Part shown: positions 13,248 to 35,797 of the stretch, one piece after another
Layout of the letters: every line of letters begins with the position of its first letter
Position numbering within the stretch: the stretch's first letter is position 1
Source: Candidatus Omnitrophota bacterium
GTDB taxonomy: Bacteria; Omnitrophota; Omnitrophia; Omnitrophales; JACROU01
Assembly (NCBI GenBank): GCA_029261035.1
Contig: JAJDCD010000022.1
Coordinates: forward strand, 16,063 to 80,062
Direction: 5' to 3'
Length of the DNA stretch: 64,000 nt
Position numbers and translations under genes: made by a program
The notes under the pieces: generated by a model
The model's input: only the letters and a program-made list of their open reading frames with translations
Databases searched by the model: none
What the model was told of the DNA's origin: nothing

Positions 13248-13263
13248 TGTGACCCATGTCACA
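13248..13263. promoter_or_regulatory. perfect CRP-type box TGTGA-CCCATG-TCACA, class-II position relative to TATACT −10 (13285-13290)
   Basis: Seen in sequence. Centre of the box to the −10 first base is 29.5 bp, the class-II geometry. It sits 82 bp upstream of the narC-like start. Confidence 0.65.
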
Positions 13264-13344: not shown

Positions 13345-14136
13345 ATGAAGATAAATTTGTTGAGATTCTCAATTTCTCTATTTGTTTTGCTGGTATGTTT
13401 TCATTCTGGTAAGGCATTTGCTATCGATGAAGATATGGTGGATATTGACACGTCGGTTCAACTTTATGTACAGAACTGTTCTGGCTGTCATACCGTTGGA
13501 GGAGGAGAGCTGACGGGCCCTGACTTAAAGGATGTTTCTACATGGTCCCAGAATGATCTATTTCCGGCAGTAAAGAGAATGGAGAAAGAGGTAGGGCCTT
13601 TAACGGATGAAGAAATTCAGAGTTTGGTAGATTTCTTAAAGACTCCAGATGCGGGAGAACGTGTAAAAGCAGAAGAAGCAAAGGTTTCTATGAAGTTCCT
13701 GTCCCAGATGTCACCCGCAGATTCGGAGTTAGGAAAAGAATTATTTTTTGGCGAGAAAAGTTTTGAGAATAAAGGCTTAGCTTGCATTTCCTGCCACGGG
13801 ATATCGGATTACCAAGGAGGCCATTTAGGTCCCGACTTAACAGGGATTTACAAGAAAATGGGTGAAACGGCTTTAGTTTCTGCTAATGAAAAAGCTAGCT
13901 TTAAGATTATGCGAGCGGCTTATAAAGATCACGCTATTACAAAACAAGAAGCGCTCCACTTAACCGAGTTTATGAAAAAAGTTTCTGAAGATCCAAAAAC
14001 GGCATCGGAGTTTAATCCTGTTGTATGGATAGGCTCAGGGTTAGCCTTATTATTTTTTATTGTTCTTTTATTTATACGACCTAAAAGAAAAAAAAGCACA
14101 AGACATAATTTAATTAAAAAAACGAAAAAAGGGTAA
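13345..14136 (+). CDS. membrane-anchored dihaem cytochrome c (NarC-like)
   Basis: Signal peptide, two CxxCH motifs (CSGCH, CISCH), C-terminal TM helix and basic tail. First gene of the nar operon, as in Thermus narCGHJIK. Confidence 0.8.
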   Translation: MKINLLRFSISLFVLLVCFHSGKAFAIDEDMVDIDTSVQLYVQNCSGCHTVGGGELTGPDLKDVSTWSQNDLFPAVKRMEKEVGPLTDEEIQSLVDFLKTPDAGERVKAEEAKVSMKFLSQMSPADSELGKELFFGEKSFENKGLACISCHGISDYQGGHLGPDLTGIYKKMGETALVSANEKASFKIMRAAYKDHAITKQEALHLTEFMKKVSEDPKTASEFNPVVWIGSGLALLFFIVLLFIRPKRKKSTRHNLIKKTKKG

Positions 14137-14139
14137 ATC

Positions 14140-17100
14140 ATGAGTTGGATAAAAGATATTTTTTCACCTAAAGAAAGATCCTGGGAAGATTTTTATCGCA
14201 ATCGTTGGGCTTATGACAAGATTGTTCGGAGTACTCATGGTGTAAACTGCACCGGATCTTGTAGTTGGAATATTCATGTAAAGCAGGGGATTGTTACGTG
14301 GGAAATGCAAGCTTTGGACTACCCTCAAATTGATAAACAAATTCCTCCTTACGAACCTCGAGGATGTCAGAGAGGGATTTCTTACTCTTGGTATATCTAT
14401 AGCCCTTTAAGAATTAAGTATCCATTAGTGAGAGGGGTTCTTTTTGATTTGTGGAGAGAAGCTAAAAGAAAATATCCAACGGATCCTGTCAAAGCCTGGG
14501 AATCCATTGTAACGAATGAAAAGTCTAGAAAAGAATACCAACAAGCTCGAGGCAAGGGAGGTTTTAGAAGAGTTTCTTGGGATGAAGTCAGTGAGATTAT
14601 GGCTGCAGCTAATCTTTATACAGTGAAAAAATATGGGCCAGACCGATTGGTTGGATTTTCTCCAATTCCGGCGATGTCTATGATTAGTTATGCCGCAGGA
14701 GCTCGTTTTATGCAGCTTATGGGTGGTGTGGCTATGTCTTTTTATGATTGGTATTGTGATTTACCCCCTGCTTCTCCAGAAGTTTGGGGTGAGCAGACCG
14801 ACGTGGCTGAAAGTGCGGATTGGTATCAATCTAGAATGATCGCTGTTGTGGGATCTAATGTATTGATGACGCGTACGCCCGATGCGCATTACTTAGTCGA
14901 AGTGAGGCATCGTGGAAGTAAAGTTGTTGTTTTTTCTCCAGATTTTAGTCAAACCTCAAAAATTGCTGACGAATGGGTTCCAATTCACCAAGGACAAGAT
15001 GGTGCTTTTTGGCTTGCTGTAGGGCATGTTATTTTGAAAGAGTATTTTGTTGATCAAAAAACGGATTTCTTTTTGGATTATCAAAAGAAGTATACGGATG
15101 GACCTTTTCTTGTGGTTCTAAACAAGGGTGATGACGGAGTTTTTAAAGCGGGGTCTTTTTTAAGAGCTTCTGACTTTAAAGAAACACAAGATGAAGAAAA
15201 TGGAGAATGGAAACTTTTTGTTTGGGATCAAAAAACAAATAAACCGGCTATGCCAACAGGAACTGTAGGACATCGTTGGCAGGAAAAGAAAGGGGAATGG
15301 AATCTTAAAATGGAAGATTCTAAAACAGGAGAAAAACTGGATCCTGTTTTGTTTTTTGAAGGAAAAAATGCGGAGCAGGTTTCTGTTCATATGGACGATT
15401 TCTCTCAAGGGTTTGAAACGCAAAGTTTAGAACGTTCTATGTGTGCTCGGAAAATCAAAACGAAAGATGGGGAAGTGTATGTAACCACTTCTATGGAGCT
15501 GATGTTGGCTCAATATGGTGTTAAAAGATCAGAAAATGCTGAAGGGTTATGGCCAGATAGTTATGAGAATGATCTGGTGTATACGCCTGCTTGGCAAGAA
15601 AAGTTTACAGGCATCAAATCTTCAGTAGTGATTAATTTTGCAAGGGATTGGGCTCAGACGGCTATAGAAAGTGAAGGTCGTTGCAGTATTATTATTGGGG
15701 CTGGCGCAAATCACTGGTATCACAATAATCTGATTTATAGAGCGTGTATTAATGCACTCATCTTTTGTGGATGTGTTGGTAAGAACGGTGGTGGTTGGAA
15801 CCATTATGTAGGGCAAGAAAAACTGGCCCCAATGGCTTCTTGGTCTCCTATTGCATTTGGTACGGATTGGGGCGGTCCTCCTCGGCTTCAAAACTCTCCT
15901 TCATTTCACTATATTCATTCGGATCAATGGCGTTATGAGAAAGCATTTGATGAGGTTTGTGCTGTGAGTGAAAAAGATCATCCTATGACAACAGGACATA
16001 CGGCAGATAAGCAGGCTTTGGCTGTTCGTAACGGTTGGCTTCCATGTTTTCCTCAATTTAATAAAAGTAATTTTGATTTAATTAAAGAAGCTCGAGAGGA
16101 TGGAGCAGACGATCCTGGAAAAATAAAAAATTATGTAGTTAAACAATTAAAAGAGCGTAAGCTTTTATTTTCTATGGAAGATCCAGATAACCCCACGAGC
16201 TTTCCTCGTGTTTGGTACATTTGGCGTGGTAATGCTTTGATGTCTTCTGCTAAGGGGCATGAATATTTTTTAAAACATTATTTAGGAACACATTCCAATG
16301 CGATTTCTGAAGAAGTGGCGAAAGAAGATATTAAAGAGGTTGTTTGGCATGACAAGGTAGAGCTTGGAAAAATGGATTTAGTTGTGGATTTAAATTATCG
16401 TATGGATTCCTCTGCACTTTACTCCGATATTGTATTGCCGGCAGCCACTTATTATGAAAAAGATGATTTAAACTCTACGGACATGCATTCTTTTATCCAT
16501 CCTTTACAAGCGGCGGTTCAGCCTTGTTGGGAATCTAAAAGCGACTGGGCTATTTTTCGAGATTTAGCAAAAGCAACTTCTGAAATGTCGGAACAATATT
16601 TTTCAGAACCTGTTGAGGATATTGTTGTAACTCCTTTACTTCATGATACGCCACAGGAAATCACACAGCCCACCGTGAAAGATTGGGCTAAGGGAGAGTG
16701 TGAACCTATTCCGGGAAAAACAATGCCTAATATTCAAGTTGTTCAGCGGCATTATCCTGATGTGTATAAGAAATTTATTTCTTTAGGGCCTAACTATCGA
16801 AATAAGGGGTTGTCAGCTCATGGGTTGAGTTATATGGCAGATGATGAATATGATCGCTTTTGTGAAGAAGAGCCCGTAGAAAAGTGGGATGGAAAGGTCT
16901 ACCCATCTCTTAAAGAAGATAGAGGTGTTTGTGAGATTATTTTAGCTTTTGCTCCAGAAACGAATGGAGAAATGGCTTGTCGCGCTTATGAGGCGGAATC
17001 TAAAAAAACAGGTTTGGATCTCACTCATCTAGCTGAAGACAGCCGTTCCATTAAATATAATTTTAACGATTTAATCGCTTCTCCTAAGAGGGTATTGACG

Positions 17101-17775
17101 ACACCTTATTGGACAGGGGTAACACGAGACAATCGAACGTATAGTGCCTTTTGTCAGAATATAGAACAGTTGATTCCATGGAGAACTTTGACAGGAAGGC
17201 AGCACTTTTATATGGATCATGAGGCGTATCGGGCTTTTGGGGAACATGTTCCTACCTTTAAAATTAGAATGGATGAAAAACAAAGTCGTGATTTGGTTCA
17301 AACAAAAAAAGAACCAGACAGTCTAACTCTAAATTATTTAACTCCACATGGTAAATGGCATATCCATAGTACTTATGGAGACACGCTTCGTATGAAGACG
17401 TTGTCACGAGGAATTGAACCTATATGGTTGAATGATCGAGATGCTGGTTTAGTGGGTGTTTGTGATAATGATTGGGTCGAGGTGACGAATGATCACGGGT
17501 CTGTTGTTACGAGAGCGTGTGTGAGCGCTCGAATTCCAAGAGGTATTTGTTTTATTTATCATGCAGTGGAAAGAACGGTTGGAGTTCCTAAATCACCGTC
17601 GCGTAATTTTAAACGAGCAGGAGGACATAACAGTTTAACTCGAGCTCGATTGAAGCCTTTGTTTATGATTGGGGGATATGCTCAATTTTCATACTTTTTT
17701 AACTATTGGGGTCCTCAAGGAGTTAATAGAGATACTTTTATAAAAATACGCAAACTAGGCAAATTGGTCTGGTAA
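14140..17775 (+). CDS. narG: respiratory nitrate reductase alpha subunit NarG (cytoplasmic nNar type; no Tat signal)
   Basis: 1211 aa. N-terminal HGVNCTGSCSWNIHVKQG [4Fe-4S]/His motif. Molybdopterin oxidoreductase. Confidence 0.95.
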   Translation: MSWIKDIFSPKERSWEDFYRNRWAYDKIVRSTHGVNCTGSCSWNIHVKQGIVTWEMQALDYPQIDKQIPPYEPRGCQRGISYSWYIYSPLRIKYPLVRGVLFDLWREAKRKYPTDPVKAWESIVTNEKSRKEYQQARGKGGFRRVSWDEVSEIMAAANLYTVKKYGPDRLVGFSPIPAMSMISYAAGARFMQLMGGVAMSFYDWYCDLPPASPEVWGEQTDVAESADWYQSRMIAVVGSNVLMTRTPDAHYLVEVRHRGSKVVVFSPDFSQTSKIADEWVPIHQGQDGAFWLAVGHVILKEYFVDQKTDFFLDYQKKYTDGPFLVVLNKGDDGVFKAGSFLRASDFKETQDEENGEWKLFVWDQKTNKPAMPTGTVGHRWQEKKGEWNLKMEDSKTGEKLDPVLFFEGKNAEQVSVHMDDFSQGFETQSLERSMCARKIKTKDGEVYVTTSMELMLAQYGVKRSENAEGLWPDSYENDLVYTPAWQEKFTGIKSSVVINFARDWAQTAIESEGRCSIIIGAGANHWYHNNLIYRACINALIFCGCVGKNGGGWNHYVGQEKLAPMASWSPIAFGTDWGGPPRLQNSPSFHYIHSDQWRYEKAFDEVCAVSEKDHPMTTGHTADKQALAVRNGWLPCFPQFNKSNFDLIKEAREDGADDPGKIKNYVVKQLKERKLLFSMEDPDNPTSFPRVWYIWRGNALMSSAKGHEYFLKHYLGTHSNAISEEVAKEDIKEVVWHDKVELGKMDLVVDLNYRMDSSALYSDIVLPAATYYEKDDLNSTDMHSFIHPLQAAVQPCWESKSDWAIFRDLAKATSEMSEQYFSEPVEDIVVTPLLHDTPQEITQPTVKDWAKGECEPIPGKTMPNIQVVQRHYPDVYKKFISLGPNYRNKGLSAHGLSYMADDEYDRFCEEEPVEKWDGKVYPSLKEDRGVCEIILAFAPETNGEMACRAYEAESKKTGLDLTHLAEDSRSIKYNFNDLIASPKRVLTTPYWTGVTRDNRTYSAFCQNIEQLIPWRTLTGRQHFYMDHEAYRAFGEHVPTFKIRMDEKQSRDLVQTKKEPDSLTLNYLTPHGKWHIHSTYGDTLRMKTLSRGIEPIWLNDRDAGLVGVCDNDWVEVTNDHGSVVTRACVSARIPRGICFIYHAVERTVGVPKSPSRNFKRAGGHNSLTRARLKPLFMIGGYAQFSYFFNYWGPQGVNRDTFIKIRKLGKLVW

Positions 17776-17813
17776 ATCGAAGAAATATTTTTACATAACA
17801 AAGGAAAAACATA

Positions 17814-19310
17814 ATGGATGTAAGAGCTCAAACAGCAATGGTATTTCATTTGGATAAATGTATTGGATGCCATACCTGTAGTGTGGCATGTAAGAACATT
17901 TGGACTGATCGCCCAGGTGCAGAATATATGTGGTGGAATAATGTAGAAACAAAACCTGGAACGGGTTACCCCACGCTTTGGGAAGATCAGGTTAATTATA
18001 AAGGTGGGTGGGAAGTTACAGACAAGAGAGAACTAAAACTTAAAAGTCAAAACAAGAAAAATTTTTGGCTGAAGATGTTCTATAACCCTAACCAACCTAC
18101 ATTGGATGATTATTACGAACCATGGACTTATGAATATAAGCATTTAACAGATGCTAAGCTAGGAGATGATCAGCCTACAGCTAGACCGATTTCTCAAATC
18201 ACTGGGGAGCCTATTGATATTGAAGCGGGGCCCAACTGGGATGATGATTTATCCGGTTCTCCTATCTATGCCGAAAATGATCCTAATTTAAGCCAATTGT
18301 CAGAAGATGAGAAAAGAATGCTTTTTGAAATCGAAAGTATTTCAATGATGTACTTACCCCGCATTTGTAATCACTGTGCAAACCCAAGTTGTGTAGCTGC
18401 TTGTCCTTCTGGGGCATTGTATAAGCGAGGGGAAGATGGGATTGTACTTGTGAATCAAGATGTTTGTCGTGGTTGGAGAAATTGTGTAGCCGCATGCCCA
18501 TATAAGAAAATTTATTTTAATTGGAAAACAGGAAAATCTGAAAAATGTATTTTGTGTTACCCCCGAATAGAAACGGGGCAGCCTCCAGCATGTTTTCATA
18601 GTTGTGTTGGGAGAATCCGTTATATGGGTGTTTTGCTTTATGATGCAGATCGTGTTGAAGAAGCGATGAAAGCGCCTTTAAATTCTCTTGTGGAGTCGCA
18701 AAGAAGTGTTTTGTTAGATCCTTTTGACCCTGAAGTTATTAAAGGAGCTAAAGAAAACAATATTAGTCCTGAAATGATTGACTCTGCACAGAATTCACCT
18801 GTATGGAATTATGTGATGAAGTGGAAATTAGCCTTACCTCTTCACCCGGAGTTTCGCACACTTCCTATGTTGTACTACGTTCCACCGTTACTTCCTGTAA
18901 TGGGGAAAATAGGGGACGGTATTTACGAGCATAAAACGGAAGACTTTTTTGCTTCAATAGAACAAGCGAGGCTTCCTATGAAGTTTTTGGCTTCTCTTTT
19001 CAGTGCGGGGAACTTAAATGAAATTAGAAGTGTCATGAAAAAACTTTTAGCGATACGACATTTCAAAAGAGCGGAATCTAGAAAAGAATTGGGCTCTGAC
19101 AAGATAAGAAAGATTCTTCATGAATCAAGAATGGACCCAGAAGAAGCAGAAGCAATCTATCAATTAACTTCTTGCCCTGGACCTTACGAGCGATTTGTTT
19201 TACCGCCTCTTCAAAGAGAAGAAGCGATGGAGGGTGGGGAAGAATGCCCTGAGTCTTGTAAAGGGAGTTGTGGCTTAGGAGATGTTCAAACACCAAAGCG
19301 AGGGTTATAA
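17814..19310 (+). CDS. narH: respiratory nitrate reductase beta subunit NarH
   Basis: Four Cys clusters (CIGCHTCSVAC…, CNHCANPSCVAACP…). Confidence 0.95.
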   Translation: MDVRAQTAMVFHLDKCIGCHTCSVACKNIWTDRPGAEYMWWNNVETKPGTGYPTLWEDQVNYKGGWEVTDKRELKLKSQNKKNFWLKMFYNPNQPTLDDYYEPWTYEYKHLTDAKLGDDQPTARPISQITGEPIDIEAGPNWDDDLSGSPIYAENDPNLSQLSEDEKRMLFEIESISMMYLPRICNHCANPSCVAACPSGALYKRGEDGIVLVNQDVCRGWRNCVAACPYKKIYFNWKTGKSEKCILCYPRIETGQPPACFHSCVGRIRYMGVLLYDADRVEEAMKAPLNSLVESQRSVLLDPFDPEVIKGAKENNISPEMIDSAQNSPVWNYVMKWKLALPLHPEFRTLPMLYYVPPLLPVMGKIGDGIYEHKTEDFFASIEQARLPMKFLASLFSAGNLNEIRSVMKKLLAIRHFKRAESRKELGSDKIRKILHESRMDPEEAEAIYQLTSCPGPYERFVLPPLQREEAMEGGEECPESCKGSCGLGDVQTPKRGL

Positions 19311-19313
19311 GTC

Positions 19314-19841
19314 ATGAGCGAAAAAAATGATTATATACAACTAGCAAAGCTTTTGGATTATCCAGATAAAAATTATATCAGTCAGCTAAGAACCATCATT
19401 AATTACTTTCAAGAAAAAAGCCCCGCAACTTCTCGTTTCTTAGAGGACTTTTTATCTCAACTTCTAGATCTGTCTTTGGAGCAAATACAAGAGATACAGA
19501 CAGCAACTTTTGATGTCAATCCTATCTGTGTGCCTTATGTGAGTGTGCATTTGTTTGGAGAAGAAAGTTTTAAGCGTTCTCAGCTTATGGCGGGTTTGGC
19601 GATGGCATATGCAGATGAGGAGTTTGATTCAGGTAAAGAATTAGCAGATCATTTAAGAAATATTCTTAATTTTGCACCTTACTTTAAAGCCGAAGAATGG
19701 GATGAGCTTGTTAGTTTTGTTTTGTTGGATTCAGTTGAAAAGATGCAAGGTAAACTAAAACAGCCGGATCATGTTTTCTTACCCTTATTGAATGCAATTT
19801 TAGAAAGACTGCGTCAAGATTCGCTTATAGGAGTTCTTTAA
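19314..19841 (+). CDS. narJ: nitrate reductase assembly chaperone NarJ
   Basis: 175 aa in the NarJ/TorD family, in its canonical position. Confidence 0.85.
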   Translation: MSEKNDYIQLAKLLDYPDKNYISQLRTIINYFQEKSPATSRFLEDFLSQLLDLSLEQIQEIQTATFDVNPICVPYVSVHLFGEESFKRSQLMAGLAMAYADEEFDSGKELADHLRNILNFAPYFKAEEWDELVSFVLLDSVEKMQGKLKQPDHVFLPLLNAILERLRQDSLIGVL

Positions 19842-21154
19842 TGATGAACCAAATGTTTTTTGTGGGATTGCCTTATTTAGCTTTATTTCTTTTAGTGGCA
19901 GGCTCTATCCTCCGATATGTGTGGAATCCTTTTAGTTATTCTGCGTTGTCGTCTCAGTTTTTAGAGAAAAATGCATTGTTGTGGGGGACGCTTTCTTGGC
20001 ATATAGGAATTTTAATTATTTTGCTTGGTCATCTTCCAGCATTCTTAGTACCCGAACTATGGAAAAGTTTAACTTCCAATTTTGTATTTCTTCTAACAGT
20101 AGAAACTGTGGGAGTGATGGCTTCCATTCTTTGTATTGCAGGACTTATTATTTTAATTGTTAGAAGAGTTGTTTCTGGAAAATTACAGCAAGTAACGACG
20201 GTTATTGATATTCTCTTACTCGTACTTATTTTGTTACAAGTGGTCATTGGTCTTTCGATGGCTCTGATGCATCGGTGGGGAGCTGTATGGTCTACAGGAA
20301 CAACAACACCCTATCTTTGGAGTATTCTTACCTTTCGTCCTGACATTTCTTATATAGAAGAAATGCCTCTTTTAGTTCAAGCTCATATTGTGATGGCCTG
20401 GATTATATTAATGCTCGTTCCTTTCTCAAGATTGGTTCACATATTTTCATTCCCTTTCCAATATTTCTTTCGTCCTCCCCAAAAGGTGGTTTGGGTCAGC
20501 GAGAGGAGGAAAGAACATGATGATTCACTTGTGGTGGTTCAAGAGAGTCGTAGAGACTTTGTTAAAGGGGCTTTGGGATTGTCTGTGGCTGGAGCTTTAT
20601 TGTCCGTAGGGGTTTTGGATAAATTGGCAGGTTTCTTTTATAAACCAGAAGTTTCTGTTGAAGAAGAAAGTAAACTGTTAGAGCAAAAACTAAAACGATT
20701 AGAACAAACAGCAGAAGAACGCACTTATCAGTTAGAAAGAATGAAGAAAGAGTTTATTTACGTATCGCGTCTAAATCAACTGGACATAGAAAAAGGGAAA
20801 TATTTTATTGATTACTTAATGCGTCCTGCTTTAGCGTTTTTGGGTAAGGATGGGCTTCCTATTCTCATATCTGCAAAATGCACCCATTTAGGATGTACCG
20901 TGGGGAGTGAGTTAGATAATCAAGGACGCATATTGTGCCCTTGCCATGTTTCTTATTTTAATATTAATACAGGGATGCCTAATCAAGGGGCTCCAGCTTT
21001 AGATCCTTTGCCTCATTTAGGCTGGGTGATCATGAATGCGAATAACGAGATTATTCTGGAGCAAGATCCATCCGGAAAGAGATATGGAAATGTGAATGTC
21101 AGTAGTATAGACAAAAGCAATCGTGTGTTTATAGCTAAGAAACATAAGGAGTAA
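19841..21154 (+). CDS. narI: NarI (gamma subunit, dihaem b) fused to a C-terminal Tat-anchor-like TM + Rieske [2Fe-2S] domain
   Basis: Residues 1-210 are NarI with His56/66/187/205 at E. coli-equivalent positions. SRRDFVKGALGLSVAGALL is a Rieske-type RR anchor. CTHLGC…CPCHVS are the Rieske boxes. Confidence 0.85.
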   Translation: MMNQMFFVGLPYLALFLLVAGSILRYVWNPFSYSALSSQFLEKNALLWGTLSWHIGILIILLGHLPAFLVPELWKSLTSNFVFLLTVETVGVMASILCIAGLIILIVRRVVSGKLQQVTTVIDILLLVLILLQVVIGLSMALMHRWGAVWSTGTTTPYLWSILTFRPDISYIEEMPLLVQAHIVMAWIILMLVPFSRLVHIFSFPFQYFFRPPQKVVWVSERRKEHDDSLVVVQESRRDFVKGALGLSVAGALLSVGVLDKLAGFFYKPEVSVEEESKLLEQKLKRLEQTAEERTYQLERMKKEFIYVSRLNQLDIEKGKYFIDYLMRPALAFLGKDGLPILISAKCTHLGCTVGSELDNQGRILCPCHVSYFNINTGMPNQGAPALDPLPHLGWVIMNANNEIILEQDPSGKRYGNVNVSSIDKSNRVFIAKKHKE

Positions 21155-21157
21155 TCT

Positions 21158-22264
21158 GTGGCTAAGCAAAGTCGTTTAAAGTATGTAATTGATGCCTTGT
21201 CTGAAAGGCTGCCTATGGAGAAATTAAGCTTTGAATCTATGGTGCAGAAGAAAGAGGTTCCTCTGCATAAAATGAGCTGGGCTTACTATATGGGTGGGTT
21301 GGCGCTCTTTTTCTTTTTGACACAGTTGATTACAGGGGTGATGTTGTTGTTTTACTATGAACCTACGGTTAGTGATGCGCATGCTTCTGTAGAGTATATT
21401 ACGCAACATGTGGTTTGGGGTGATTTGATTCGAAATTTACATACTTGGTCCTCTAGTCTTATGATTCTTTGTGTGATGGTCCATTTGTTAACAACATTTG
21501 CGATGAAGGCATTTGAAGCTCCTCGCGAGTTAACTTGGCTTACCGGTGTTGGCCTTTTAATTATTACTTTTATGTTTGGTTTCACTGGGTATTTACTTCC
21601 TTGGCATCAAATTGCAGTCAATGCGACTAAGGTGGGGTTGCAATCTATTGAATATTTAGGCAATTATCTACCCGGGTTTTTGGCAGAGTGGCCTACGATG
21701 ATTAAAGAGATTATTCAGGGAGGCCCTACTGTAGGACAGGCTACTTTAAGCCGTTTTTATGCGCTTCATGTTGTGATTTTACCTTTATGTTTATTTGGTT
21801 TGTTGGGTCTTCATTTGCTTTCAGTTCAACTTCACGGAATGAGCCAGGGGATTGATAAGCCTTCAAAAAAACAAGAACGCTTTTTTCCATTTTTTGTACT
21901 CAAAGATTTTTCTCTTTGGGGGATTGTGTTTTTAATTACCTTTATTTTGGCTCTCTGTCTTCCGTTTGAATCATTTTTTTCTTTTCCTCTATTTGAACCT
22001 TATGACCCACTGGGATCAACGCCTGATGGAATTAAGCCAGAGTGGTATTTCTTATTTCTTTTTTATCCTCTAGAACTCCTTCCTTTTTGGGTTGTTCTTT
22101 TGGGGTTGATGATTGTGATGGGTGTCTTAACATTTACACCCTGGATTTTCAAAAGTACTTCCAGAAAGATATTAACAATTATTTCACTGTTGTCAGCAGC
22201 ATACCTCATTATTATGACTTTGTTTGGAGGCATAATTTATGAATGGGTTAAAGGGGGACACTGA
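21158..22264 (+). CDS. cytochrome b of bc1/b6f-type complex (full length, PEWY Qo motif)
   Basis: GTG start. Conserved b-haem His residues and …IKPEWYFLFLFYP…. Confidence 0.88.
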   Translation: MAKQSRLKYVIDALSERLPMEKLSFESMVQKKEVPLHKMSWAYYMGGLALFFFLTQLITGVMLLFYYEPTVSDAHASVEYITQHVVWGDLIRNLHTWSSSLMILCVMVHLLTTFAMKAFEAPRELTWLTGVGLLIITFMFGFTGYLLPWHQIAVNATKVGLQSIEYLGNYLPGFLAEWPTMIKEIIQGGPTVGQATLSRFYALHVVILPLCLFGLLGLHLLSVQLHGMSQGIDKPSKKQERFFPFFVLKDFSLWGIVFLITFILALCLPFESFFSFPLFEPYDPLGSTPDGIKPEWYFLFLFYPLELLPFWVVLLGLMIVMGVLTFTPWIFKSTSRKILTIISLLSAAYLIIMTLFGGIIYEWVKGGH

Positions 22265-22266
22265 TA

Positions 22267-22905
22267 ATGAGATGGATTAAGGTTTTATCATTAGTAAGTT
22301 TTCTATTAGGAATCTCTTTTTTATTCCAAGACAACCTTTGTGCTTACCCTGAGTTTCAAGAGTTCTCACAGAAAAATTCAGGACGTTATGTTAACTGTGC
22401 TCTTTGTCATGCCCATCCTGATGGTCCTGAGGGAATTAAGCCAGGGCAGGTAGGTAGTTTGGATGAGGAGGAAAGGCAGTTGTTGAATCAGGCACGAGCA
22501 GCCGTTCAGCCTGGATTTGAAGTTAATAGCCCCATTCTAAATGAGTTTGGCAATGACATTATGAAGCAATTAGGAAAGAAAGAATTTTTATTGTACCGCA
22601 AGTTTCCAGAACGTTTATCTGAAGTGTTAGATCCAAATAGCGATTTAGATAACGATGGAATTTCAGATAGGCAAGAATATTTAGATGGAACTCATCCTTT
22701 AAATAATCAACACGGAAATCCATGGAAGTTATTTAACCATCGATTTTGGAATAATCGTTTTGATATTTTAATTATTGTTTTAGCCACTTTTTTTGGGCTT
22801 TATGGTTTTAAGCATTTGCTTCATTGGCTACATTTTAAGACATCCTCTTTTAATAAGGATGAGGATGAAAGCGAAGATGAGGACAAGGATTCTTATTCCA
22901 TATAA
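22267..22905 (+). CDS. membrane-anchored monohaem cytochrome c (c1-like partner)
   Basis: Signal peptide, CALCHAH, C-terminal TM helix and acidic tail. Confidence 0.75.
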   Translation: MRWIKVLSLVSFLLGISFLFQDNLCAYPEFQEFSQKNSGRYVNCALCHAHPDGPEGIKPGQVGSLDEEERQLLNQARAAVQPGFEVNSPILNEFGNDIMKQLGKKEFLLYRKFPERLSEVLDPNSDLDNDGISDRQEYLDGTHPLNNQHGNPWKLFNHRFWNNRFDILIIVLATFFGLYGFKHLLHWLHFKTSSFNKDEDESEDEDKDSYSI

Positions 22906-22917
22906 GGAGTTATCGTC

Positions 22918-24405
22918 ATGCAAACACAAGCAACTTTTGATTCCCACAAGGCACTTTTTTTAAATACGTTTGCTTTTACTGTGTGTTTTGCCGTTTGGAT
23001 GTTAAACGGGGTGCTCGTAACCTTTTTAGTAGCAAATCAGGTCTTTGACTGGGGTCCTGTTGAAATAGGTTGGTTGTTGGGGATTCCTGTCTTAACGGGT
23101 TCTCTTTTTCGTTTGCCTGCAGGTATGCTTACGGATAAGTTTGGAGGCAAGCCCATTTATGGAGCTTTGCTTTTAATATGCGCTGTACCTATGTACTTAT
23201 TATCGTACGCTAATGATTTTACCAGTTTTGCTTTATGCAGTTTTGGATTTGGATTAGCAGGGGTTAGTTTTTCTATTGGAATTGCGTTTTCTTCTGTTTG
23301 GTATCCTAAAAATATTCAAGGAACAGTACTCGGCATTTTTGGTGCAGGAAATGCTGGAGCAGCGCTCACAACATTGTTTGCTCCTACCATCTTAAATAAA
23401 TTAACACAAAATGGAATCAATATAGAAGGTTGGAGAATGTTACCAAAGTATTATGCTTTGGTATTGATTGCCACTGCTATTGTGTTTTTTATCTTTTCTA
23501 AAAACAAAAAACCTGCTTCGAGTGGCTTGGGTTGGATTGAGATGTTGAAGCCATTAAAAAATATTCGAGTATGGCGATTTGGGCTTTATTACTTTTTGGT
23601 GTTTGGGTGTTTTGTGGCTTTTTCTCAATGGCTAGTACCTTATTTTGTAAATGTTTATTACTTACCTTTAGTTACAGCAGGAATCTTTGCTTCGCTATTT
23701 AGTTTGCCTTCAGGTGTTATTCGAGCTTTAGGAGGGTGGATGTCGGATAAGTTTGGAGCAAGGAAAGTGATGTATTGGATCCTAGCATCTTCAACCATTA
23801 TTTGCTTCTTGTTAATTGTTCCCAAAATGGATATTTACTCCCCAGGGCAGGGGATTATGGCTAAAAGAGCGGGAGAGGTTGTTGGGGTGACTGATGGTGC
23901 AATTAAAGTAGATACTAAGACTTACACCATGGTTAAAGCCCAGAATAAATTTGATGATTTGGATGATCAAGTTTTGGTATTTCCTTCAAAAGAAGTGTGG
24001 CAAGAAGCAGTTGTTGAGGTGGGTCAAAAAGTAAAACGAAAAGAGTTGTTAGCAAAAGGAATAACCCGAATTCATTTTCAGGCGAATGTATGGATTTTTA
24101 CCGTTCTGGTTATTGCATTAGGGGCTATCTGGGGGATTGGAAAAGCAGCCGTTTATAAACATATTCCTGATTATTTTCCTAACGAAGTGGGTGTTGTCGG
24201 AGGGATGGTCGGAGTTCTTGGCGGGTTAGGCGGGTTTTTCTGCCCGATTATTTTTGGTTATTTGCTAAAAGGAACAGGGCTTTGGACGAGTTGTTGGATT
24301 TTTATGTTCTTTTTATCTTTTCTCTGTCTGTGGTGGATGCATCATGTCATTAGTCATATGTTGAGAAAGAAACAACCCGAATTAGAACATCGAATTGACC
24401 ATTAA
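22918..24405 (+). CDS. narK: MFS nitrate/nitrite transporter NarK1
   Basis: 12-TM MFS in the NNP family, with a long central loop. Confidence 0.85.
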   Translation: MQTQATFDSHKALFLNTFAFTVCFAVWMLNGVLVTFLVANQVFDWGPVEIGWLLGIPVLTGSLFRLPAGMLTDKFGGKPIYGALLLICAVPMYLLSYANDFTSFALCSFGFGLAGVSFSIGIAFSSVWYPKNIQGTVLGIFGAGNAGAALTTLFAPTILNKLTQNGINIEGWRMLPKYYALVLIATAIVFFIFSKNKKPASSGLGWIEMLKPLKNIRVWRFGLYYFLVFGCFVAFSQWLVPYFVNVYYLPLVTAGIFASLFSLPSGVIRALGGWMSDKFGARKVMYWILASSTIICFLLIVPKMDIYSPGQGIMAKRAGEVVGVTDGAIKVDTKTYTMVKAQNKFDDLDDQVLVFPSKEVWQEAVVEVGQKVKRKELLAKGITRIHFQANVWIFTVLVIALGAIWGIGKAAVYKHIPDYFPNEVGVVGGMVGVLGGLGGFFCPIIFGYLLKGTGLWTSCWIFMFFLSFLCLWWMHHVISHMLRKKQPELEHRIDH

Positions 24406-24432
24406 CAACGAGTAAAGTTTAAGGAGTGGAAG

Positions 24433-26028
24433 ATGTCAAAAATTAATATTCCCGATTGGGATGTCGAAAATAATGAGTTTTGGAATAATAAGGGTAAAAA
24501 ACTTGCTTCTAAGAACCTTTGGCTTTCTATTCCTGCATTGCTACTGGCTTTTTCTGTCTGGTTGATGTGGGGGATGGTTATTGTTCAGATGAAAAAGCTG
24601 GGATTTAACTTAGGGCTTCCTGCGGAAACTCCGGAGCATTTAAGGCGAATTAACGAACTTTTATGGACGCTTCCTGCGATTGCAGGTTTGTCTGGAGCAA
24701 CATTGAGGATTCCCAATTCTTTTTTAATTGCTGTTGGGGGTGGACGTAATGTTATTTTCTTAACGACAGCACTTCTTCTAATTCCAACAGTGGCTGCAGG
24801 GGTAGCGTTACAGGATGTGAATACGCCTTTTTTCATTTTTGCTTTATTAGCGGCCTTATCCGGGTTTGGGGGAGGTAACTTTGCTTCTTCCATGTCTAAC
24901 ATTAGTTTTTTCTTTCCTAAAAGAGTCCAGGGAACTTCATTGGGTTTGAATGCAGGTCTTGGTAATTTAGGTGTGAGTGTTATGCAGTTTGTGATTCCTA
25001 TTGTTATTGCAGGAGGAGTCTTTGGAGCTGTGGCAGGTGGAGGTTTACCCTTAGTGGAGGTGGATGGCTCTAAAGCTGTGGGAACTTTGGTGTATATTCA
25101 GAACGCGGCATGGGTTTGGGTGCCTCTCTTAATCATTTCTGTTATCGCTGCTTTCTTCGGTATGAACAATTTGAAGTTTGCAACCCCTGCATTAGGTAAT
25201 TATTTTTTAGAGTTTAGTAAAATTATATTATTGATTTTTTTCGGAGTAGTCGCTGCTGGTTTTGGAGGTTGGTTACTAATTGGTTTAAAATTGAATATGT
25301 GGCTTGTGTTGCCCATTACAATTTTGATAACCGTTCTCTTGATGAAATTCTTATCTCCTGGGGAGTTGAAGGAAAATTTAAATAGGCAGTTTTCAATCTT
25401 TAAAAGTAAGCATAACTGGATTATGACGATTATCTATACGATGACTTTTGGCTCTTTTATTGGATACTCTGCTTCTTTCCCAAAATTAATTCAGGATGTG
25501 TTTGGATACCTACCCGATGGAGGGGTGAACCCAAATGCGCCAAACCCTATGACATGGGCTTTTTTAGGCCCCATGTTAGGCGCTTTAATTAGACCCTTAG
25601 GGGGATGGCTTTCTGATAAAGTCAATAGTGGGTCTAAAGTGACGACATGGAGTACGATTGCTCAGGTAGGTGCGGCGCTTGGAGTTGCTTACTTTATAGT
25701 TCAGGCAAAAGGGGTTGAAACTCCTGAAACTTATTGGTGGCCATTTTTTGTACTATTTATGATTTTATTCATTGCTACGGGCGTTGGAAATGGATCTACG
25801 TTTAGAAGTATTCCATATATTTTTAGTAAAGAGCAAGCGGGCCCTGTACTAGGATGGACCTCAGCCATTGCTGCTTATGGGGCATTTATTATTCCCAAAG
25901 TTTTTGGACAACAAATTAAAGCGGGCCATGCGGAATATGCGCTTTATGGATTTACGGCTTATTATTTGATTTGCTTGCTCCTGAATTGGTATTACTATGA
26001 CCGAAAAAATTCGCTCATTAAATGTTAG
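24433..26028 (+). CDS. narK: MFS nitrate/nitrite transporter NarK2
   Basis: Second NNP-family MFS paralogue in tandem. Confidence 0.85.
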   Translation: MSKINIPDWDVENNEFWNNKGKKLASKNLWLSIPALLLAFSVWLMWGMVIVQMKKLGFNLGLPAETPEHLRRINELLWTLPAIAGLSGATLRIPNSFLIAVGGGRNVIFLTTALLLIPTVAAGVALQDVNTPFFIFALLAALSGFGGGNFASSMSNISFFFPKRVQGTSLGLNAGLGNLGVSVMQFVIPIVIAGGVFGAVAGGGLPLVEVDGSKAVGTLVYIQNAAWVWVPLLIISVIAAFFGMNNLKFATPALGNYFLEFSKIILLIFFGVVAAGFGGWLLIGLKLNMWLVLPITILITVLLMKFLSPGELKENLNRQFSIFKSKHNWIMTIIYTMTFGSFIGYSASFPKLIQDVFGYLPDGGVNPNAPNPMTWAFLGPMLGALIRPLGGWLSDKVNSGSKVTTWSTIAQVGAALGVAYFIVQAKGVETPETYWWPFFVLFMILFIATGVGNGSTFRSIPYIFSKEQAGPVLGWTSAIAAYGAFIIPKVFGQQIKAGHAEYALYGFTAYYLICLLLNWYYYDRKNSLIKC

Positions 26029-26037
26029 TTTTGTGAT
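26022..26037. promoter_or_regulatory. CRP-type box TGTGA-TTTGAA-TCACt upstream of radical-SAM gene
   Basis: 9/10 half-site match. ATAATT at 26059 gives a −41.5 centre. Confidence 0.5.
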
Positions 26038-26136
26038 TTGAATCACTGTTTTATTGTACGGCACATGATAATTTAAACTCGTGATCGATTAATTTTTTAT
26101 TAATAAACCAAAGTCTATTAGCGAGTTTAAATTATT

Positions 26137-35795: not shown

Positions 35796-35797
35796 AA

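What the first reader, a model, noticed from the sequence alone, without database searches (positions are those of the whole stretch)
13345..26028. Thermus-type narC-GHJI-K1K2 respiratory nitrate reductase locus in a Chlamydiae-like genome
The gene order matches the Thermus thermophilus narCGHJIK(T) arrangement. A dihaem membrane cytochrome c (NarC-like: two CxxCH, C-terminal TM) is followed by narG, narH, narJ, narI (fused to Rieske here) and two tandem NNP-family NarK transporters.

The surrounding genome (SWIB protein, MurI, DUF2203, giant ORFs) looks like an environmental Chlamydiae symbiont. In such a lineage a complete dissimilatory nitrate reductase with dedicated Moco, haem and anaerobic-RNR support genes would point to a facultatively anaerobic, nitrate-respiring lifestyle. 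It is likely to be horizontally acquired.
Basis: partly seen in the sequence, partly recalled or inferred. Interest (0 to 1): 0.6.

Follow-up and report, generated by a model that had tools for sequence, protein, structure and literature searches.

The report
Nitrate reductase fused to bc complex
This is a complete nitrate-respiration operon in an Omnitrophota (not Chlamydiae) genome whose membrane subunit NarI is fused to the Rieske protein of a cytochrome bc-type complex encoded in the same operon, a widespread arrangement I could not find described that may let cells gain about twice the energy per nitrate.

Summary
The nar locus is real and its boundaries (13345-26028) are exact. With the Rieske domain fused to NarI, these form a full Rieske/cytochrome b module inside the operon.

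The first gene is a true homologue of Thermus NarC. NarG is closest to Thermus NarG (59% identity, against 47% for Proteobacteria). "Thermus-type" is therefore half right.

The host is not Chlamydiae. SufB and MiaB both point to Omnitrophota. Base composition and codon usage show no recent transfer.

The seven-gene core narC-G-H-J-(I::Rieske)-cytb-cytc recurs, collinear, in at least 344 species genomes. The 80 best are all MAGs carrying at least 12 phylum-level labels. Their NarG forms one clade, sister to Thermus.

My best reading, which is inferred, is an obligate Nar-bc supercomplex. Quinol is oxidised by a Q-cycle. Electrons return through the c haems and the NarI haems to cytoplasmic NarGH, giving 4 rather than 2 charges per 2 electrons.

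The main rival is that the bc module feeds other periplasmic acceptors.

I found no description of the fusion in the searchable literature.

The parts
11967..12419 (+). Small cyclic-nucleotide-binding-domain protein with no DNA-binding domain, conserved upstream of the regulator in the sister genome
   Evidence: PF00027, E 5e-13. The same gene is present in L003.
12486..13148 (+). CRP/FNR-family transcription regulator, probable activator of the operon
   Evidence: PF00027 plus HTH_Crp_2. Weak matches to FixK, CRP and Fnr models.
13248..13263 (.). Perfect CRP-type palindrome TGTGACCCATGTCACA, 82 bp upstream of the narC start codon
   Evidence: Six matches with at most one mismatch in the window against 1.6 expected; 0 of 100 shuffles reach 6.
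13345..14136 (+). NarC homologue: periplasmic dihaem cytochrome c with a signal peptide and a C-terminal membrane anchor
   Evidence: Two cytochrome c domains. BLASTP against Thermus NarC gives E 1e-15. TM helix at 226-244. Present in 56 of 56 related loci that reach far enough.
14140..17775 (+). NarG, the cytoplasmic Mo-bisMGD catalytic subunit
   Evidence: TIGR01580 scores 1547 bits against a cutoff of 1084. The FS0 His/Cys ligands and the Mo-ligand Asp are invariant, and there is no twin-arginine motif.
17814..19310 (+). NarH, the iron-sulfur subunit
   Evidence: TIGR01660 scores 633 bits against a cutoff of 524.
19314..19841 (+). NarJ, the Moco-insertion chaperone
   Evidence: PF02613 scores 26.3 bits against 22.2. 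TIGR00684 scores 41 bits, below its cutoff of 59.
19841..21154 (+). NarI::Rieske fusion. Residues 1-217 form the five-TM dihaem cytochrome b (NarI). Residues 236-259 hold an internal twin-arginine motif (SRRDFVK) and a sixth TM helix. Residues 273-302 form a long amphipathic helix. Residues 305-432 form a Rieske [2Fe-2S] domain (CTHLGC...CPCH).
21158..22264 (+). Cytochrome b of a Rieske/cytb complex. It is a long form with about 7 TM helices. Four haem-ligand His are present, spaced 14 and 15 residues apart. PEWY is present. YMGG stands in place of the CxGG haem-cn motif.
Evidence: PF00033 E 4e-40. Best PDB match is cytochrome b6, 1e-44. Conservation.
22267..22905 (+). New monohaem cytochrome c subunit ('c1x'). 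It has a signal peptide, one CxxCH motif (C44-C47-H48), a DxDxDG calcium-binding-like loop (126-137) and a C-terminal TM helix (167-185).
Evidence: No match in Pfam, NCBIfam, PDB sequences, a PDB profile search or Foldseek. The AF2 model has pLDDT 92. Present in 69 of 69 related loci. Only 42 clusters reach E<=1e-10 among 1.84 billion representatives.
22918..24405 (+). NarK-family nitrate/nitrite transporter 1
   Evidence: MFS_1, with a partial TIGR00886 match.
24433..26028 (+). NarK-family nitrate/nitrite transporter 2 (NarU-like)
   Evidence: TIGR00886 267 bits and PRK15034 319 bits, both below their cutoffs.
26032..26047 (.). CRP-type box with one mismatch (TGTGATTTGAATCACT), between narK2 and the radical-SAM gene
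26137..28383 (+). Radical-SAM protein (26137-26904) and an AlgE-like outer-membrane porin (26950-28383); probable accessory genes, perhaps for anion entry across the outer membrane
   Evidence: The same pair follows narK2 in the sister genome. AlgE-like porins lie next to the cassette in four other loci.
28493..28508 (.). Second perfect CRP-type palindrome TGTGATCTAGATCACA, 74 bp upstream of nrdD
28582..31513 (+). nrdD and nrdG, the anaerobic ribonucleotide reductase and its activase
   Evidence: PF13597 E 1e-178, and Radical_SAM plus Fer4_12.
31525..31648 (+). Moco riboswitch in front of moaA
   Evidence: RF01055 scores 37.8 bits against a gathering score of 36.
31682..36789 (+). Molybdenum cofactor genes moaA, moaC-moaB fusion, tauE-like permease, moeA, moaD, moaE and mobA
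36782..38215 (+). hemY, protoporphyrinogen oxidase (haem supply)
   Evidence: TIGR00562 scores 340 bits against a cutoff of 97.9.

Best explanation
The locus encodes one self-contained quinol:nitrate oxidoreductase supercomplex. In it, a cytoplasm-facing NarGH catalytic dimer is wired to a Rieske/cytochrome b (bc-type) complex.

What the sequence shows:
- NarG, NarH and NarJ are canonical, and NarG has no export signal.
- NarI keeps all four haem-ligand histidines.
- After its fifth helix, NarI continues into a twin-arginine motif, a sixth helix and a long linker helix. It ends in a complete bc-type Rieske domain, which must therefore lie on the periplasmic side.
- The next gene is a cytochrome b with four haem-ligand histidines and the PEWY motif.
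- Two membrane-anchored periplasmic c-type cytochromes complete the operon: a Thermus-NarC homologue and a new monohaem protein.

Inferred mechanism:
1. Menaquinol is oxidised at the Qo site of cytochrome b.
2. One electron recycles through the b haems to Qi, as in a Q-cycle.
3. The other electron passes Rieske -> monohaem c -> dihaem NarC -> the outer haem of the NarI domain.
4. It then crosses the membrane through the two NarI haems to NarH and NarG, where nitrate imported by NarK is reduced.

In this scheme NarI acts mainly as a transmembrane electron wire rather than as the quinol oxidase. The complex would move about 4 charges per 2 electrons, against 2 for classical NarGHI.

Expression is probably switched on under anoxia by the adjacent CRP/FNR-type regulator through TGTGA-N6-TCACA boxes. 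These boxes are shared with nrdDG.
For: Composition and topology:
- There are six TM helices, with the RR motif just before the sixth.
- The AF2 model shows five TM helices, then a sixth, then a 30-residue helix, then a beta-rich Rieske domain.
- CTHLGC/CPCH and the S/A-RR-x-F-L-K motif occur in 80 of 80 family members. PEWY occurs in 73 of 75 cytochromes b.

Selection on the whole set:
- In 80 species-level loci, every one of the seven genes is present wherever the contig reaches: NarJ 75/75, NarH 68/68, NarG 58/58, NarC 56/56, cytb 72/72, c1x 69/69.
- 54 loci hold all seven genes, collinear within 10.5 kb.
- At least 344 genomes carry the fusion.
- The monohaem c family is found almost nowhere else: 42 clusters among 1.84 billion representatives.

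Links between the modules:
- NarC is a known NarI partner in Thermus by two-hybrid assay, and is needed for Nar maturation (PMC7694296).
- The position of E. coli NarI Lys86 (the Q_D quinol site, mutated in PDB 1Y5I) carries K, K, H, R, Y, Y, Y in seven classical NarI. It carries V, F, A, L or I in 62 of 65 fused proteins.

Context:
- No nir, nor or nos genes recur next to the cassette. The recurrent neighbours are Rrf2 (21 loci), MoaA (11) and ScdA/RIC (10).

Precedents for Nar fed by a bc complex:
- Streptomyces Nar1 needs an active bcc-aa3 supercomplex (PMC7931247).
- Haloarchaeal nitrate respiration is antimycin-sensitive, with Rieske/cytb genes in the nar cluster (PMC3509893 and PMC4683180).
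Against: - No experiment exists for any member, and all 80 loci are MAGs.
- The electron path from c haems to the NarI haem is inferred only. By analogy with E. coli potentials (my own knowledge) it may be locally uphill.
- The Lys86 argument is weak. That position is not strictly conserved in classical NarI (Tyr in Gram-positives), and 17 of 65 fused proteins have K or R within three columns of it.
- In Thermus, NarC is thought to carry electrons away from NarI to nitrite and NO reductases (PMC7694296). That is the opposite direction.
- Only about 9 kb of flank per locus was examined, so nir/nor/nos or cytochrome oxidases elsewhere in these genomes are not excluded.
- Single-chain AF2 says nothing about subunit contacts.
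Confidence: 0.5

Rival explanations
1. Two enzymes work in parallel in one operon. The NarI domain still oxidises quinol directly for nitrate reduction, as in E. coli and Thermus. The Rieske/cytochrome b module and the c cytochromes oxidise quinol to feed other acceptors. These could be nitrite, NO or N2O reductases, or a cytochrome c oxidase at the oxic-anoxic boundary. The fusion merely secures co-assembly and stoichiometry.
For: - In Thermus, NarC is proposed to pass electrons from the nitrate reductase to nitrite and NO reductases, replacing complex III (PMC7694296).
- All four NarI haem ligands are kept.
- The Lys86 position is variable even in classical NarI.
- Both c cytochromes are membrane-tethered on the periplasmic side, where such acceptors sit.
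Against: - No nir, nor, nos or oxidase genes recur within about 9 kb of the cassette in about 70 loci.
- The polar Q_D-site residue is replaced by a hydrophobic one in 62 of 65 members.
- Strict co-inheritance of all seven genes across the labelled phyla, plus a covalent NarI-Rieske link, is more than co-regulation would require.
Confidence: 0.3
2. The complex runs in reverse as a nitrite oxidoreductase of the cytoplasm-facing Nitrobacter type. Electrons from nitrite leave via NarI and the c cytochromes. The bc module drives reverse electron flow to the quinone pool.
For: The Thermus review notes a very similar narC-containing cluster in Nitrobacter hamburgensis, where the enzyme oxidises nitrite (PMC7694296).
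Against: - The operon is flanked by a strictly anaerobic ribonucleotide reductase, and shares its CRP-type promoter box with it.
- Two NarK transporters and NO-stress genes fit nitrate reduction.
- The hosts, going by their record labels, are groups I know (own knowledge) mainly as heterotrophs: Omnitrophota, Melainabacteria, Hydrogenedentota and Verrucomicrobiota.
- No Nitrobacter NxrA was available for comparison.
Confidence: 0.05
3. One reading: an ordinary Thermus-type narCGHJIK operon, recently acquired by an environmental Chlamydiae symbiont.
For: NarC homology and the closeness of NarG to Thermus NarG.
Against: - SufB and MiaB place the contig in Omnitrophota, with no Chlamydiae among the named hits.
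- Thermus lacks the Rieske fusion, the cytochrome b and the monohaem c.
- There is no compositional sign of recent transfer.
Confidence: 0.03

Closest known systems
Thermus thermophilus heterotetrameric nitrate reductase NarCGHI (operon narCGHJIKT on the NCE element)
   Same: - The first gene is a dihaem, C-terminally anchored cytochrome c. It is homologous to Thermus NarC (E 1e-15).
- The order narC-G-H-J-I followed by two MFS transporters is shared.
- Thermus NarG is the closest NarG among the plasmid records searched (59%) and is the sister branch.
- An invariant Glu at the E. coli M91 position of NarI is shared only by Thermus and this family.
- A CRP-family regulator lies upstream in both.
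   Different: Thermus NarI is a stand-alone 225-aa protein. Its operon has no Rieske domain, no cytochrome b and no monohaem c. In Thermus, complex III is said to be bypassed during denitrification (PMC7694296).
Escherichia coli NarGHI (PDB 1Q16), the textbook quinol:nitrate redox loop
   Same: - NarG, NarH, NarJ and NarI are orthologous.
- The FS0 ligands, the Mo-ligand Asp and the four NarI histidines are conserved.
- The active site is cytoplasmic, and NarK transporters are present.
   Different: - NarG identity is 47%.
- The E. coli operon has no c-type cytochromes and no bc module.
- Lys86 of the E. coli quinol site is hydrophobic here.
Archaeal nitrate reductase clusters with Rieske/cytochrome b genes (Haloferax and Haloarcula narB/narC; Methanoperedens)
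   Same: Rieske and cytochrome b genes lie in the same cluster as narGH. The published proposal is the same: a Q-cycle complex feeds the nitrate reductase (PMC3509893 and PMC4683180).
   Different: - The papers place the archaeal nitrate reductase outside the cytoplasm: in the periplasm for Haloarchaea (PMC3509893) and in the pseudoperiplasm for Methanoperedens (PMC4683180).
- The haloarchaeal cluster order given in PMC3509893 lists no NarI.
- Here NarG has no Tat motif and faces the cytoplasm. NarI is present and is the fusion partner, and NarK transporters are needed.
Streptomyces coelicolor Nar1, which depends on the cytochrome bcc-aa3 supercomplex
   Same: A cytoplasm-facing bacterial NarGHI that needs an active bc-type complex and co-purifies with it. 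[quoted passage not shown]
   Different: In Streptomyces, Nar1 co-purifies with components of a cytochrome bcc-aa3 oxidase supercomplex (PMC7931247). In the window, the Rieske domain is fused to NarI and the cytochrome b and c genes lie inside the nar operon.
Thermogutta terrifontis narGHI with adjacent complex III genes
   Same: In a cultured nitrate-respiring planctomycete, bc complex genes lie next to narGHI. The authors suggested that complex III takes part in nitrate respiration (PMC5673643).
   Different: That NarG is described as a deep Nar-DMSO lineage. No NarC was found, the bc genes lie on the other side of narG, and no fusion is reported.
Non-canonical Rieske/cytochrome b complexes of anammox bacteria (Kuenenia Kuste4569, Kustd1480)
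   Same: Rieske/cytb cores are combined with extra redox modules. These Rieske domains are the best PDB sequence matches to the window's Rieske domain (9rk3, E 7.5e-07).
   Different: Different partner modules are proposed (NAD(P)H generation; PMC12954380). Nar is not involved.

Membership tests
Respiratory membrane-bound nitrate reductase NarGHI (cytoplasm-facing nNar) | NarG of the narG equivalog family, with FS0 His/Cys ligands and the Mo-coordinating Asp | tested here: met
   TIGR01580 scores 1547 bits against a cutoff of 1084. H-x3-C-x3-C and YDWYCDLPPA are invariant in 53 family members and in E. coli.
Respiratory membrane-bound nitrate reductase NarGHI (cytoplasm-facing nNar) | NarG lacks a functional Tat signal, and nitrate/nitrite transporters are present | tested here: met
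   No RR motif in the window NarG N-terminus; 1 of 53 family members has RRx[FLIVM]. Two NarK-family genes are present.
Respiratory membrane-bound nitrate reductase NarGHI (cytoplasm-facing nNar) | NarH equivalog and NarJ chaperone | tested here: met
   TIGR01660 scores 633 bits against 524. NarJ passes Pfam (26.3 against 22.2) but falls below the NCBIfam cutoff (41 against 59).
Respiratory membrane-bound nitrate reductase NarGHI (cytoplasm-facing nNar) | NarI with five TM helices and four His ligands for two b haems | tested here: met
   TIGR00351 scores 135 bits against 105.5. H54, H64, H182 and H200 are invariant in 65 of 65 sequences, apart from one gap.
Respiratory membrane-bound nitrate reductase NarGHI (cytoplasm-facing nNar) | Polar residue of the periplasmic quinol (Q_D) site, Lys86 in E. 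coli NarI | tested here: not met
   That position is F83 in the window and V, F, A, L or I in 62 of 65 fused proteins. It is K, K, H, R, Y, Y, Y in seven classical NarI. The alignment in this loop is not fully certain.
Thermus-type NarCGHI | First gene of the operon encodes a NarC homologue: a dihaem c with a C-terminal anchor | tested here: met
   BLASTP gives E 1e-15 and 29% identity over 231 aa. Both CxxCH motifs and the TM helix align.
Thermus-type NarCGHI | Four-subunit enzyme with a stand-alone NarI and no dedicated bc module | tested here: not met
   The window has a NarI::Rieske fusion plus cytochrome b plus a monohaem c. Thermus has none of these.
Thermus-type NarCGHI | NarG belongs to the same clade as Thermus NarG | tested here: inconclusive
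   Thermus is sister to the fused family rather than inside it (58-65% identity). The tree is NJ with few outgroups.
Rieske/cytochrome b complex (bc1 / b6f family) | Rieske domain with CxH...CxxH cluster ligands and the disulfide cysteines | tested here: met
   CTHLGC...CPCH occurs in 80 of 80 sequences. PDB matches are to bc1, b6f and Thermus Rieske proteins.
Rieske/cytochrome b complex (bc1 / b6f family) | Twin-arginine signal-anchor helix that places the Rieske domain on the P side | tested here: met
   S/A-RR-x-F-L/I/V-K/R followed by a TM helix occurs in 80 of 80 sequences. Here it is internal, coming after the cytoplasmic C-terminus of NarI. Actual Tat dependence is not testable here.
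Rieske/cytochrome b complex (bc1 / b6f family) | Cytochrome b with two His pairs for haems bL and bH and the PEWY Qo motif | tested here: met
   PF00033 E 4e-40. H95/H109 and H204/H219 are conserved. PEWY occurs in 73 of 75 sequences.
Rieske/cytochrome b complex (bc1 / b6f family) | Haem cn cysteine (CxGG) of b6f- and Firmicutes-type complexes | tested here: not met
   The motif is Y-x-G-G in all 75 sequences, although the N-terminal half is most like cytochrome b6.
Rieske/cytochrome b complex (bc1 / b6f family) | Cytochrome c1 or f as the third core subunit | tested here: not met
   The 212-aa monohaem protein matches no Pfam, NCBIfam or PDB sequence, profile or fold. The c subunit of this complex family varies between lineages (own knowledge).
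Archaeal periplasm-facing Nar with Rieske/cytb genes in the cluster | Nitrate reductase located outside the cytoplasm, with no NarI in the cluster | tested here: not met
   The window NarG has no Tat motif. NarI is present.
Cytoplasm-facing nitrite oxidoreductase (Nitrobacter-type NXR) | NxrA-specific clade membership and aerobic expression | not tested
   No NxrA sequence was available in the collections I could reach. The context (nrdDG, a shared CRP box) argues for anaerobic use.

The most novel reading that the evidence does not exclude
In this reading, a large clade of uncultured bacteria carrying at least 12 phylum-level labels respires nitrate with an obligate NarGH-NarI::Rieske-cytb-c-NarC supercomplex. 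Here NarI is no longer a quinol oxidase. It is a transmembrane wire that returns Q-cycle electrons from the periplasmic side to the cytoplasmic active site.

This would double the charge yield of nitrate respiration. [quoted passage not shown]

The 212-aa monohaem cytochrome would be a new kind of c subunit dedicated to this link.
Probability: 0.45. Interest if true: 0.8.

Novelty: new variant of a known kind. Interest (0 to 1): 0.65.

Why it matters
Nar-type nitrate reduction is the entry step of denitrification and of nitrate ammonification, and a main anaerobic respiration in soils, sediments and groundwater. Its energy yield is usually taken from the E. coli redox loop (2 charges per 2 electrons).

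A fused Nar-bc enzyme would change three things:
- The expected growth yield, and so the competitiveness, of its carriers on nitrate would rise. Going by their record labels, these include Omnitrophota, Melainabacteria/Obscuribacterales, Hydrogenedentota, Sumerlaeota, Verrucomicrobiota, Planctomycetota and Acidobacteriota.
- It would give a natural, covalently tethered example of a respiratory supercomplex.
- It would link the odd fourth subunit of Thermus Nar (NarC) to a function.

There are practical consequences too. The source names attached to these fusion proteins are 'respiratory nitrate reductase subunit gamma' (NCBI) and 'nitrate reductase gamma subunit' (JGI), so the bc module is invisible in gene-centric nitrogen-cycle surveys. 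The finding also corrects the host assignment: this is an Omnitrophota genome, not a chlamydial symbiont.

Tried and rejected
- **Genome scan with the single fusion protein.** It found nothing. The scan with the alignment succeeded.
- **Exact look-ups of window proteins.** They returned only short Logan contigs and an unnamed 87-kb NCBI contig, so the source record could not be named.
- **Classical FNR box TTGAT-N4-ATCAA.** It is not enriched: 10 matches against 5.9 expected, and none in the nar promoter. Rejected in favour of the CRP-type box.
- **Sigma-70 promoter and terminator scans.** They gave nothing above chance.
- **The monohaem protein c1x.**
  - No significant hit from PDB sequence or profile searches. 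The best was a parvulin PPIase at E 0.006, which I judged spurious.
  - Foldseek against the PDB found nothing.
- **Literature.** Ten full-text searches found no paper describing a NarI-Rieske fusion. Subscription journals are not covered.
- **Chlamydiae host.** Rejected on SufB and MiaB.
- **Recent horizontal transfer.** Rejected on composition and codon usage and on the grouping of the NarG tree by phylum label. The IS200-family transposase at 38279-38875 is the only mobile-element trace nearby.
- **Lys86 as a clean discriminator.** Weakened once Gram-positive NarI were added, because they carry Tyr at that position.

Full report
**1. What is at the coordinates**

The interval 13345-26028 is filled by nine + strand ORFs. 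Their spacing runs from a 1-nt overlap to a 38-nt gap. Profile searches identify them as follows:
- a dihaem c-type cytochrome (13345-14136)
- NarG (TIGR01580, 1547 bits, cutoff 1084)
- NarH (TIGR01660, 633 bits, cutoff 524)
- NarJ (above the Pfam threshold)
- a 437-aa protein with a complete NarI at residues 1-217 (TIGR01351-class model TIGR00351, 135 bits, cutoff 105.5) and a Rieske domain at residues 311-391
- a 368-aa cytochrome b of the bc1/b6f family (21158-22264)
- a 212-aa protein with no family match (22267-22905)
- two NarK-family MFS transporters

**2. The parts in detail**

NarG:
- It has the FS0 motif H-x3-C-x3-C and the Mo-ligand Asp, within YDWYCDLPPA.
- It has no twin-arginine motif, so it is a cytoplasm-facing catalytic subunit.

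The NarI domain:
- It aligns with E. coli NarI (PDB 1Q16/1Y5I) over residues 2-214.
- It keeps all four haem-ligand histidines.

After the fifth NarI helix, whose end is cytoplasmic in E. coli NarI (own knowledge), the chain continues as follows:
- SRRDFVK, a typical Rieske-type twin-arginine motif
- a sixth hydrophobic helix (241-259)
- a 30-residue amphipathic helix
- a beta-rich domain with CTHLGC...CPCHVSYF, the bc-type Rieske signature including the two disulfide cysteines

An AlphaFold2 model built on 32 homologues reproduces this layout, with mean pLDDT 78 and the Rieske domain at 80-92. The topology places the Rieske cluster on the periplasmic side, where a Qo site needs it.

The cytochrome b:
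- It has about seven helices.
- It has two His pairs, spaced 14 and 15 residues apart.
- It has PEWY, and YMGG where b6-type proteins have the haem-cn CxGG motif.
- Its best solved relatives are cytochromes b6 (1e-44), followed by bacterial cytochromes b.

The 212-aa protein (c1x):
- It has a signal peptide, one CxxCH, an invariant DxDxDG...E loop and a C-terminal helix.
- Its AF2 model is confident (pLDDT 92).
- It matches nothing in Pfam, NCBIfam, PDB sequences, a PDB profile search or Foldseek against the PDB.

**3. Relation to Thermus**

The best NarG match among 72,556 plasmid records is Thermus thermophilus, at 58.9% over 99% of the length. Bacillus reaches 50.7% and Proteobacteria about 47-48%.

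I fetched the Thermus operon as L084. It reads narC-G-H-J-I-K-T, with a stand-alone 225-aa NarI and no bc genes.

The window's first gene aligns with Thermus NarC end to end: 29% identity, E 1e-15, lengths of 263 and 262 aa, with both haem motifs and the C-terminal anchor aligned. The NarI domain is 39% identical to Thermus NarI. An invariant Glu at the position of E. coli M91 is shared only by Thermus and the fused family. Six other classical NarI have M, I or V there.

"Thermus-type" is thus correct for NarC and for the affinity of the enzyme core. The operon, however, is a different and larger architecture.

**4. Host**

SufB:
- The sister genome is 87% identical.
- Of the next 118 relatives, 12 carry an organism name.
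- Ten are Omnitrophica/Omnitrophota, one is Verrucomicrobiae, one is Marinamargulisbacteria, and none is Chlamydiae.

MiaB:
- The sister is 73% identical.
- Next comes a 64-66% group whose only named member is Omnitrophica.
- The other named hits lie at 50-53%: four Omnitrophica/Omnitrophota and one Verrucomicrobiae.

In the NarG tree, the window and its sister group with the two Omnitrophota MAG loci, L041 and L046. These two loci also have by far the most similar NarK1 and NarK2 (69-82%).

The contig is therefore from Omnitrophota.

**5. Recent transfer?**

GC (0.390) and GC3 (0.316) of the nar core equal those of the flanks (0.380-0.381 and 0.289-0.310). Synonymous codon fractions correlate at r = 0.97-0.98 between the nar core, the support genes and both flanks.

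A 2.17-Mb metagenome contig (L003) carries the same locus, from the cNMP protein through nrdD, at 62-92% protein identity. Nothing indicates a recent arrival.

**6. A conserved cassette**

The fusion protein has at least 120 full-length homologues carrying both Pfam domains at 49-57% identity. A pattern scan of one genome per GTDB species found at least 344 genomes that encode it. The 80 best are all MAGs.

Their records are labelled Hydrogenedentota, Sumerlaeota, Planctomycetota, Verrucomicrobiota, Omnitrophota, Melainabacteria/Obscuribacterales, Acidobacteriota, Bacteroidota, Myxococcales/Deltaproteobacteria, Gemmatimonadetes, Eisenbacteria, Nitrospiraceae and others.

Wherever a contig extends far enough, every core gene is present in the same order:

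| Gene | Loci with the gene / loci that reach far enough |
|---|---|
| NarJ | 75/75 |
| NarH | 68/68 |
| NarG | 58/58 |
| NarC | 56/56 |
| Cytochrome b | 72/72 |
| c1x | 69/69 |

Fifty-four loci hold all seven genes, collinear within 10.5 kb. The Rieske ligands and the internal RR motif are present in 80 of 80 sequences.

The NarG proteins of the cassette (53 full-length) form one clade. Thermus is sister at 58-65% identity and Proteobacteria are the outgroup at 46-52%. Inside the clade, sequences largely group by phylum label: Hydrogenedentota, Verrucomicrobiota, Melainabacteria and Omnitrophota. This points to old spread and mostly vertical descent since then.

c1x is essentially confined to this cassette. 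Only 42 clusters reach E<=1e-10 among 1.84 billion representatives, and some of those are merely large repeat proteins that share the calcium-loop motif.

**7. How it probably works**

The sequences show the following. All redox carriers needed to take electrons from a Qo site to the Mo centre are encoded in one operon. One of them is covalently joined to NarI. NarGH face the cytoplasm. The Rieske domain and both c cytochromes face the periplasm.

What follows is inferred. Quinol is oxidised at the Qo site of cytochrome b. One electron cycles to Qi. The other runs Rieske -> c1x -> NarC -> outer NarI haem -> inner NarI haem -> NarH -> NarG.

The bookkeeping rests on established Q-cycle and redox-loop stoichiometries (see PMC3475470 and PMC4683180 for the two halves). 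It gives 2 charges from the Q-cycle plus 2 from the transmembrane electron return. That is 4 per 2 electrons, against 2 for E. coli-type NarGHI.

Points in favour:
- All seven genes are strictly co-inherited.
- NarC and NarI are known to interact in Thermus (PMC7694296).
- The polar Q_D-site residue (E. coli Lys86, the residue mutated in PDB 1Y5I) is replaced by V, F, A, L or I in 62 of 65 fused proteins. Seven classical NarI have K, K, H, R, Y, Y, Y there.
- Nir, nor and nos genes are absent from the recurrent neighbours. Those are instead Rrf2-family regulators (21 loci), MoaA (11), ScdA/RIC di-iron proteins (10), AlgE-like porins, CRP regulators and MobA.
- There are precedents. Streptomyces Nar1 depends on the bcc-aa3 supercomplex (PMC7931247). 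Archaeal nitrate reductases are clustered with Rieske/cytb genes, and haloarchaeal nitrate respiration is antimycin-sensitive (PMC3509893, PMC4683180). In Thermogutta, bc genes lie next to narGHI (PMC5673643).

Points against:
- There are no experiments on any member.
- The Lys86 position is not strictly conserved, so that argument is only suggestive.
- Only about 9 kb of flank per locus was inspected.
- In Thermus, NarC is proposed to carry electrons out of the enzyme, not into it.

I put the supercomplex/Q-cycle reading at about 0.5. The parallel-modules reading, in which the bc module feeds other acceptors, gets about 0.3. A reversed, nitrite-oxidising role gets about 0.05.

**8. Regulation and support genes**

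Two perfect TGTGA-N6-TCACA palindromes lie 82 bp upstream of narC and 74 bp upstream of nrdD. A one-mismatch copy follows narK2. In total there are six matches against 1.6 expected, and 0 of 100 shuffles reach six. The classical FNR box is not enriched. The CRP/FNR-family regulator at 12486-13148 is the obvious candidate for binding these boxes.

Downstream lie, in order:
- a radical-SAM gene
- an AlgE-like outer-membrane porin
- nrdDG
- a Moco riboswitch (31525-31648)
- moaA, moaC-moaB, a TauE-like permease, moeA, moaD, moaE and mobA
- hemY

**9. Comparison with the known, and novelty**

The enzyme core belongs to the NarGHI family and is nearest to the Thermus NarCGHI type. The added module belongs to the Rieske/cytochrome b family. 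The idea that a bc complex feeds Nar has been proposed for archaeal enzymes that face outward, and for Streptomyces.

I could not find any of the following described in ten full-text searches:
- the covalent NarI::Rieske fusion
- its combination with a NarC homologue, a dedicated cytochrome b and a new monohaem c in one operon
- its combination with a cytoplasm-facing NarG
- its breadth across bacterial phyla

Source names call the fusion simply 'respiratory nitrate reductase subunit gamma'. Subscription literature was not searchable, so earlier mention cannot be excluded.

I class it as a new variant of a known kind, with interest of about 0.65.

Noticed in passing
window 31525-31648 (+): A Moco (molybdenum cofactor) riboswitch lies directly upstream of moaA. 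It scores just above the Rfam gathering score (37.8 against 36 bits). It would put Moco synthesis under feedback control next to the nitrate reductase.
   Followed up: partly
window 13248-13263, 28493-28508, 26032-26047: CRP-type palindromes TGTGA-N6-TCACA sit in the promoters of narC and nrdD (both perfect) and after narK2 (one mismatch). This suggests a single anaerobic regulon under the adjacent CRP/FNR-family regulator. The regulator has an unusual Cys cluster (C75, C77, C86) instead of the N-terminal FNR cysteines.
   Followed up: partly
window 26137-28383; also L003, L006, L014, L051, L073: A radical-SAM protein with no NCBIfam match and an AlgE-like (Alginate_exp) outer-membrane beta-barrel follow narK2. 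Similar porins sit beside the cassette in loci labelled Hydrogenedentota and Verrucomicrobiota. They may be an outer-membrane nitrate/nitrite channel.
   Followed up: partly
L004-L083 flanks (e.g. L014:1551-2108, L008:12686-13432): The most frequent neighbours of the cassette in other phyla are an Rrf2-family regulator (21 loci, NsrR-like by position) and a ScdA/hemerythrin 'repair of iron centres' protein (10 loci). Both are NO-stress functions. No nir, nor or nos genes recur.
   Followed up: partly
window 38279-38875 (-): An IS200/IS605-family (Y1) transposase has the lowest GC of the genes examined (0.322). Of the 47 genes called here it is one of only two on the minus strand, the other being the 1591-aa giant ORF. 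It lies between hemY and miaB, at the end of the anaerobic gene block.
   Followed up: no
window 41709-51683 (+) and 59161-63936 (-): There are two giant ORFs. The 3324-aa one has ARMT1-like, AprA-type methyltransferase and HTH domains. The 1591-aa one has no Pfam match at all. To my knowledge such giant genes are typical of Omnitrophota.
   Followed up: no
window 22267-22905, residues 126-137: The new monohaem cytochrome carries an invariant DxDxDGxxDxxE loop. The same motif hits multi-repeat proteins of 350-3063 aa in the representative library (thrombospondin type 3-like calcium sites). No conserved Met or second His is available as the sixth haem ligand.
   Followed up: partly
window 1-64000: GC skew is strongly positive along the whole window (0.04-0.29), and almost all genes are on the + strand. 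No tRNA genes were found in 64 kb.
   Followed up: no
window 53467-54645 (+): An aminotransferase is closest to LL-diaminopimelate aminotransferase (DapL) models, just below their cutoffs.
   Followed up: no
window 22918-24405, residues ~305-390: NarK1 carries an insertion of about 80 residues. It is hydrophilic and lies in the middle of the MFS fold, between the two six-helix halves. It explains the split MFS_1 match.
   Followed up: no
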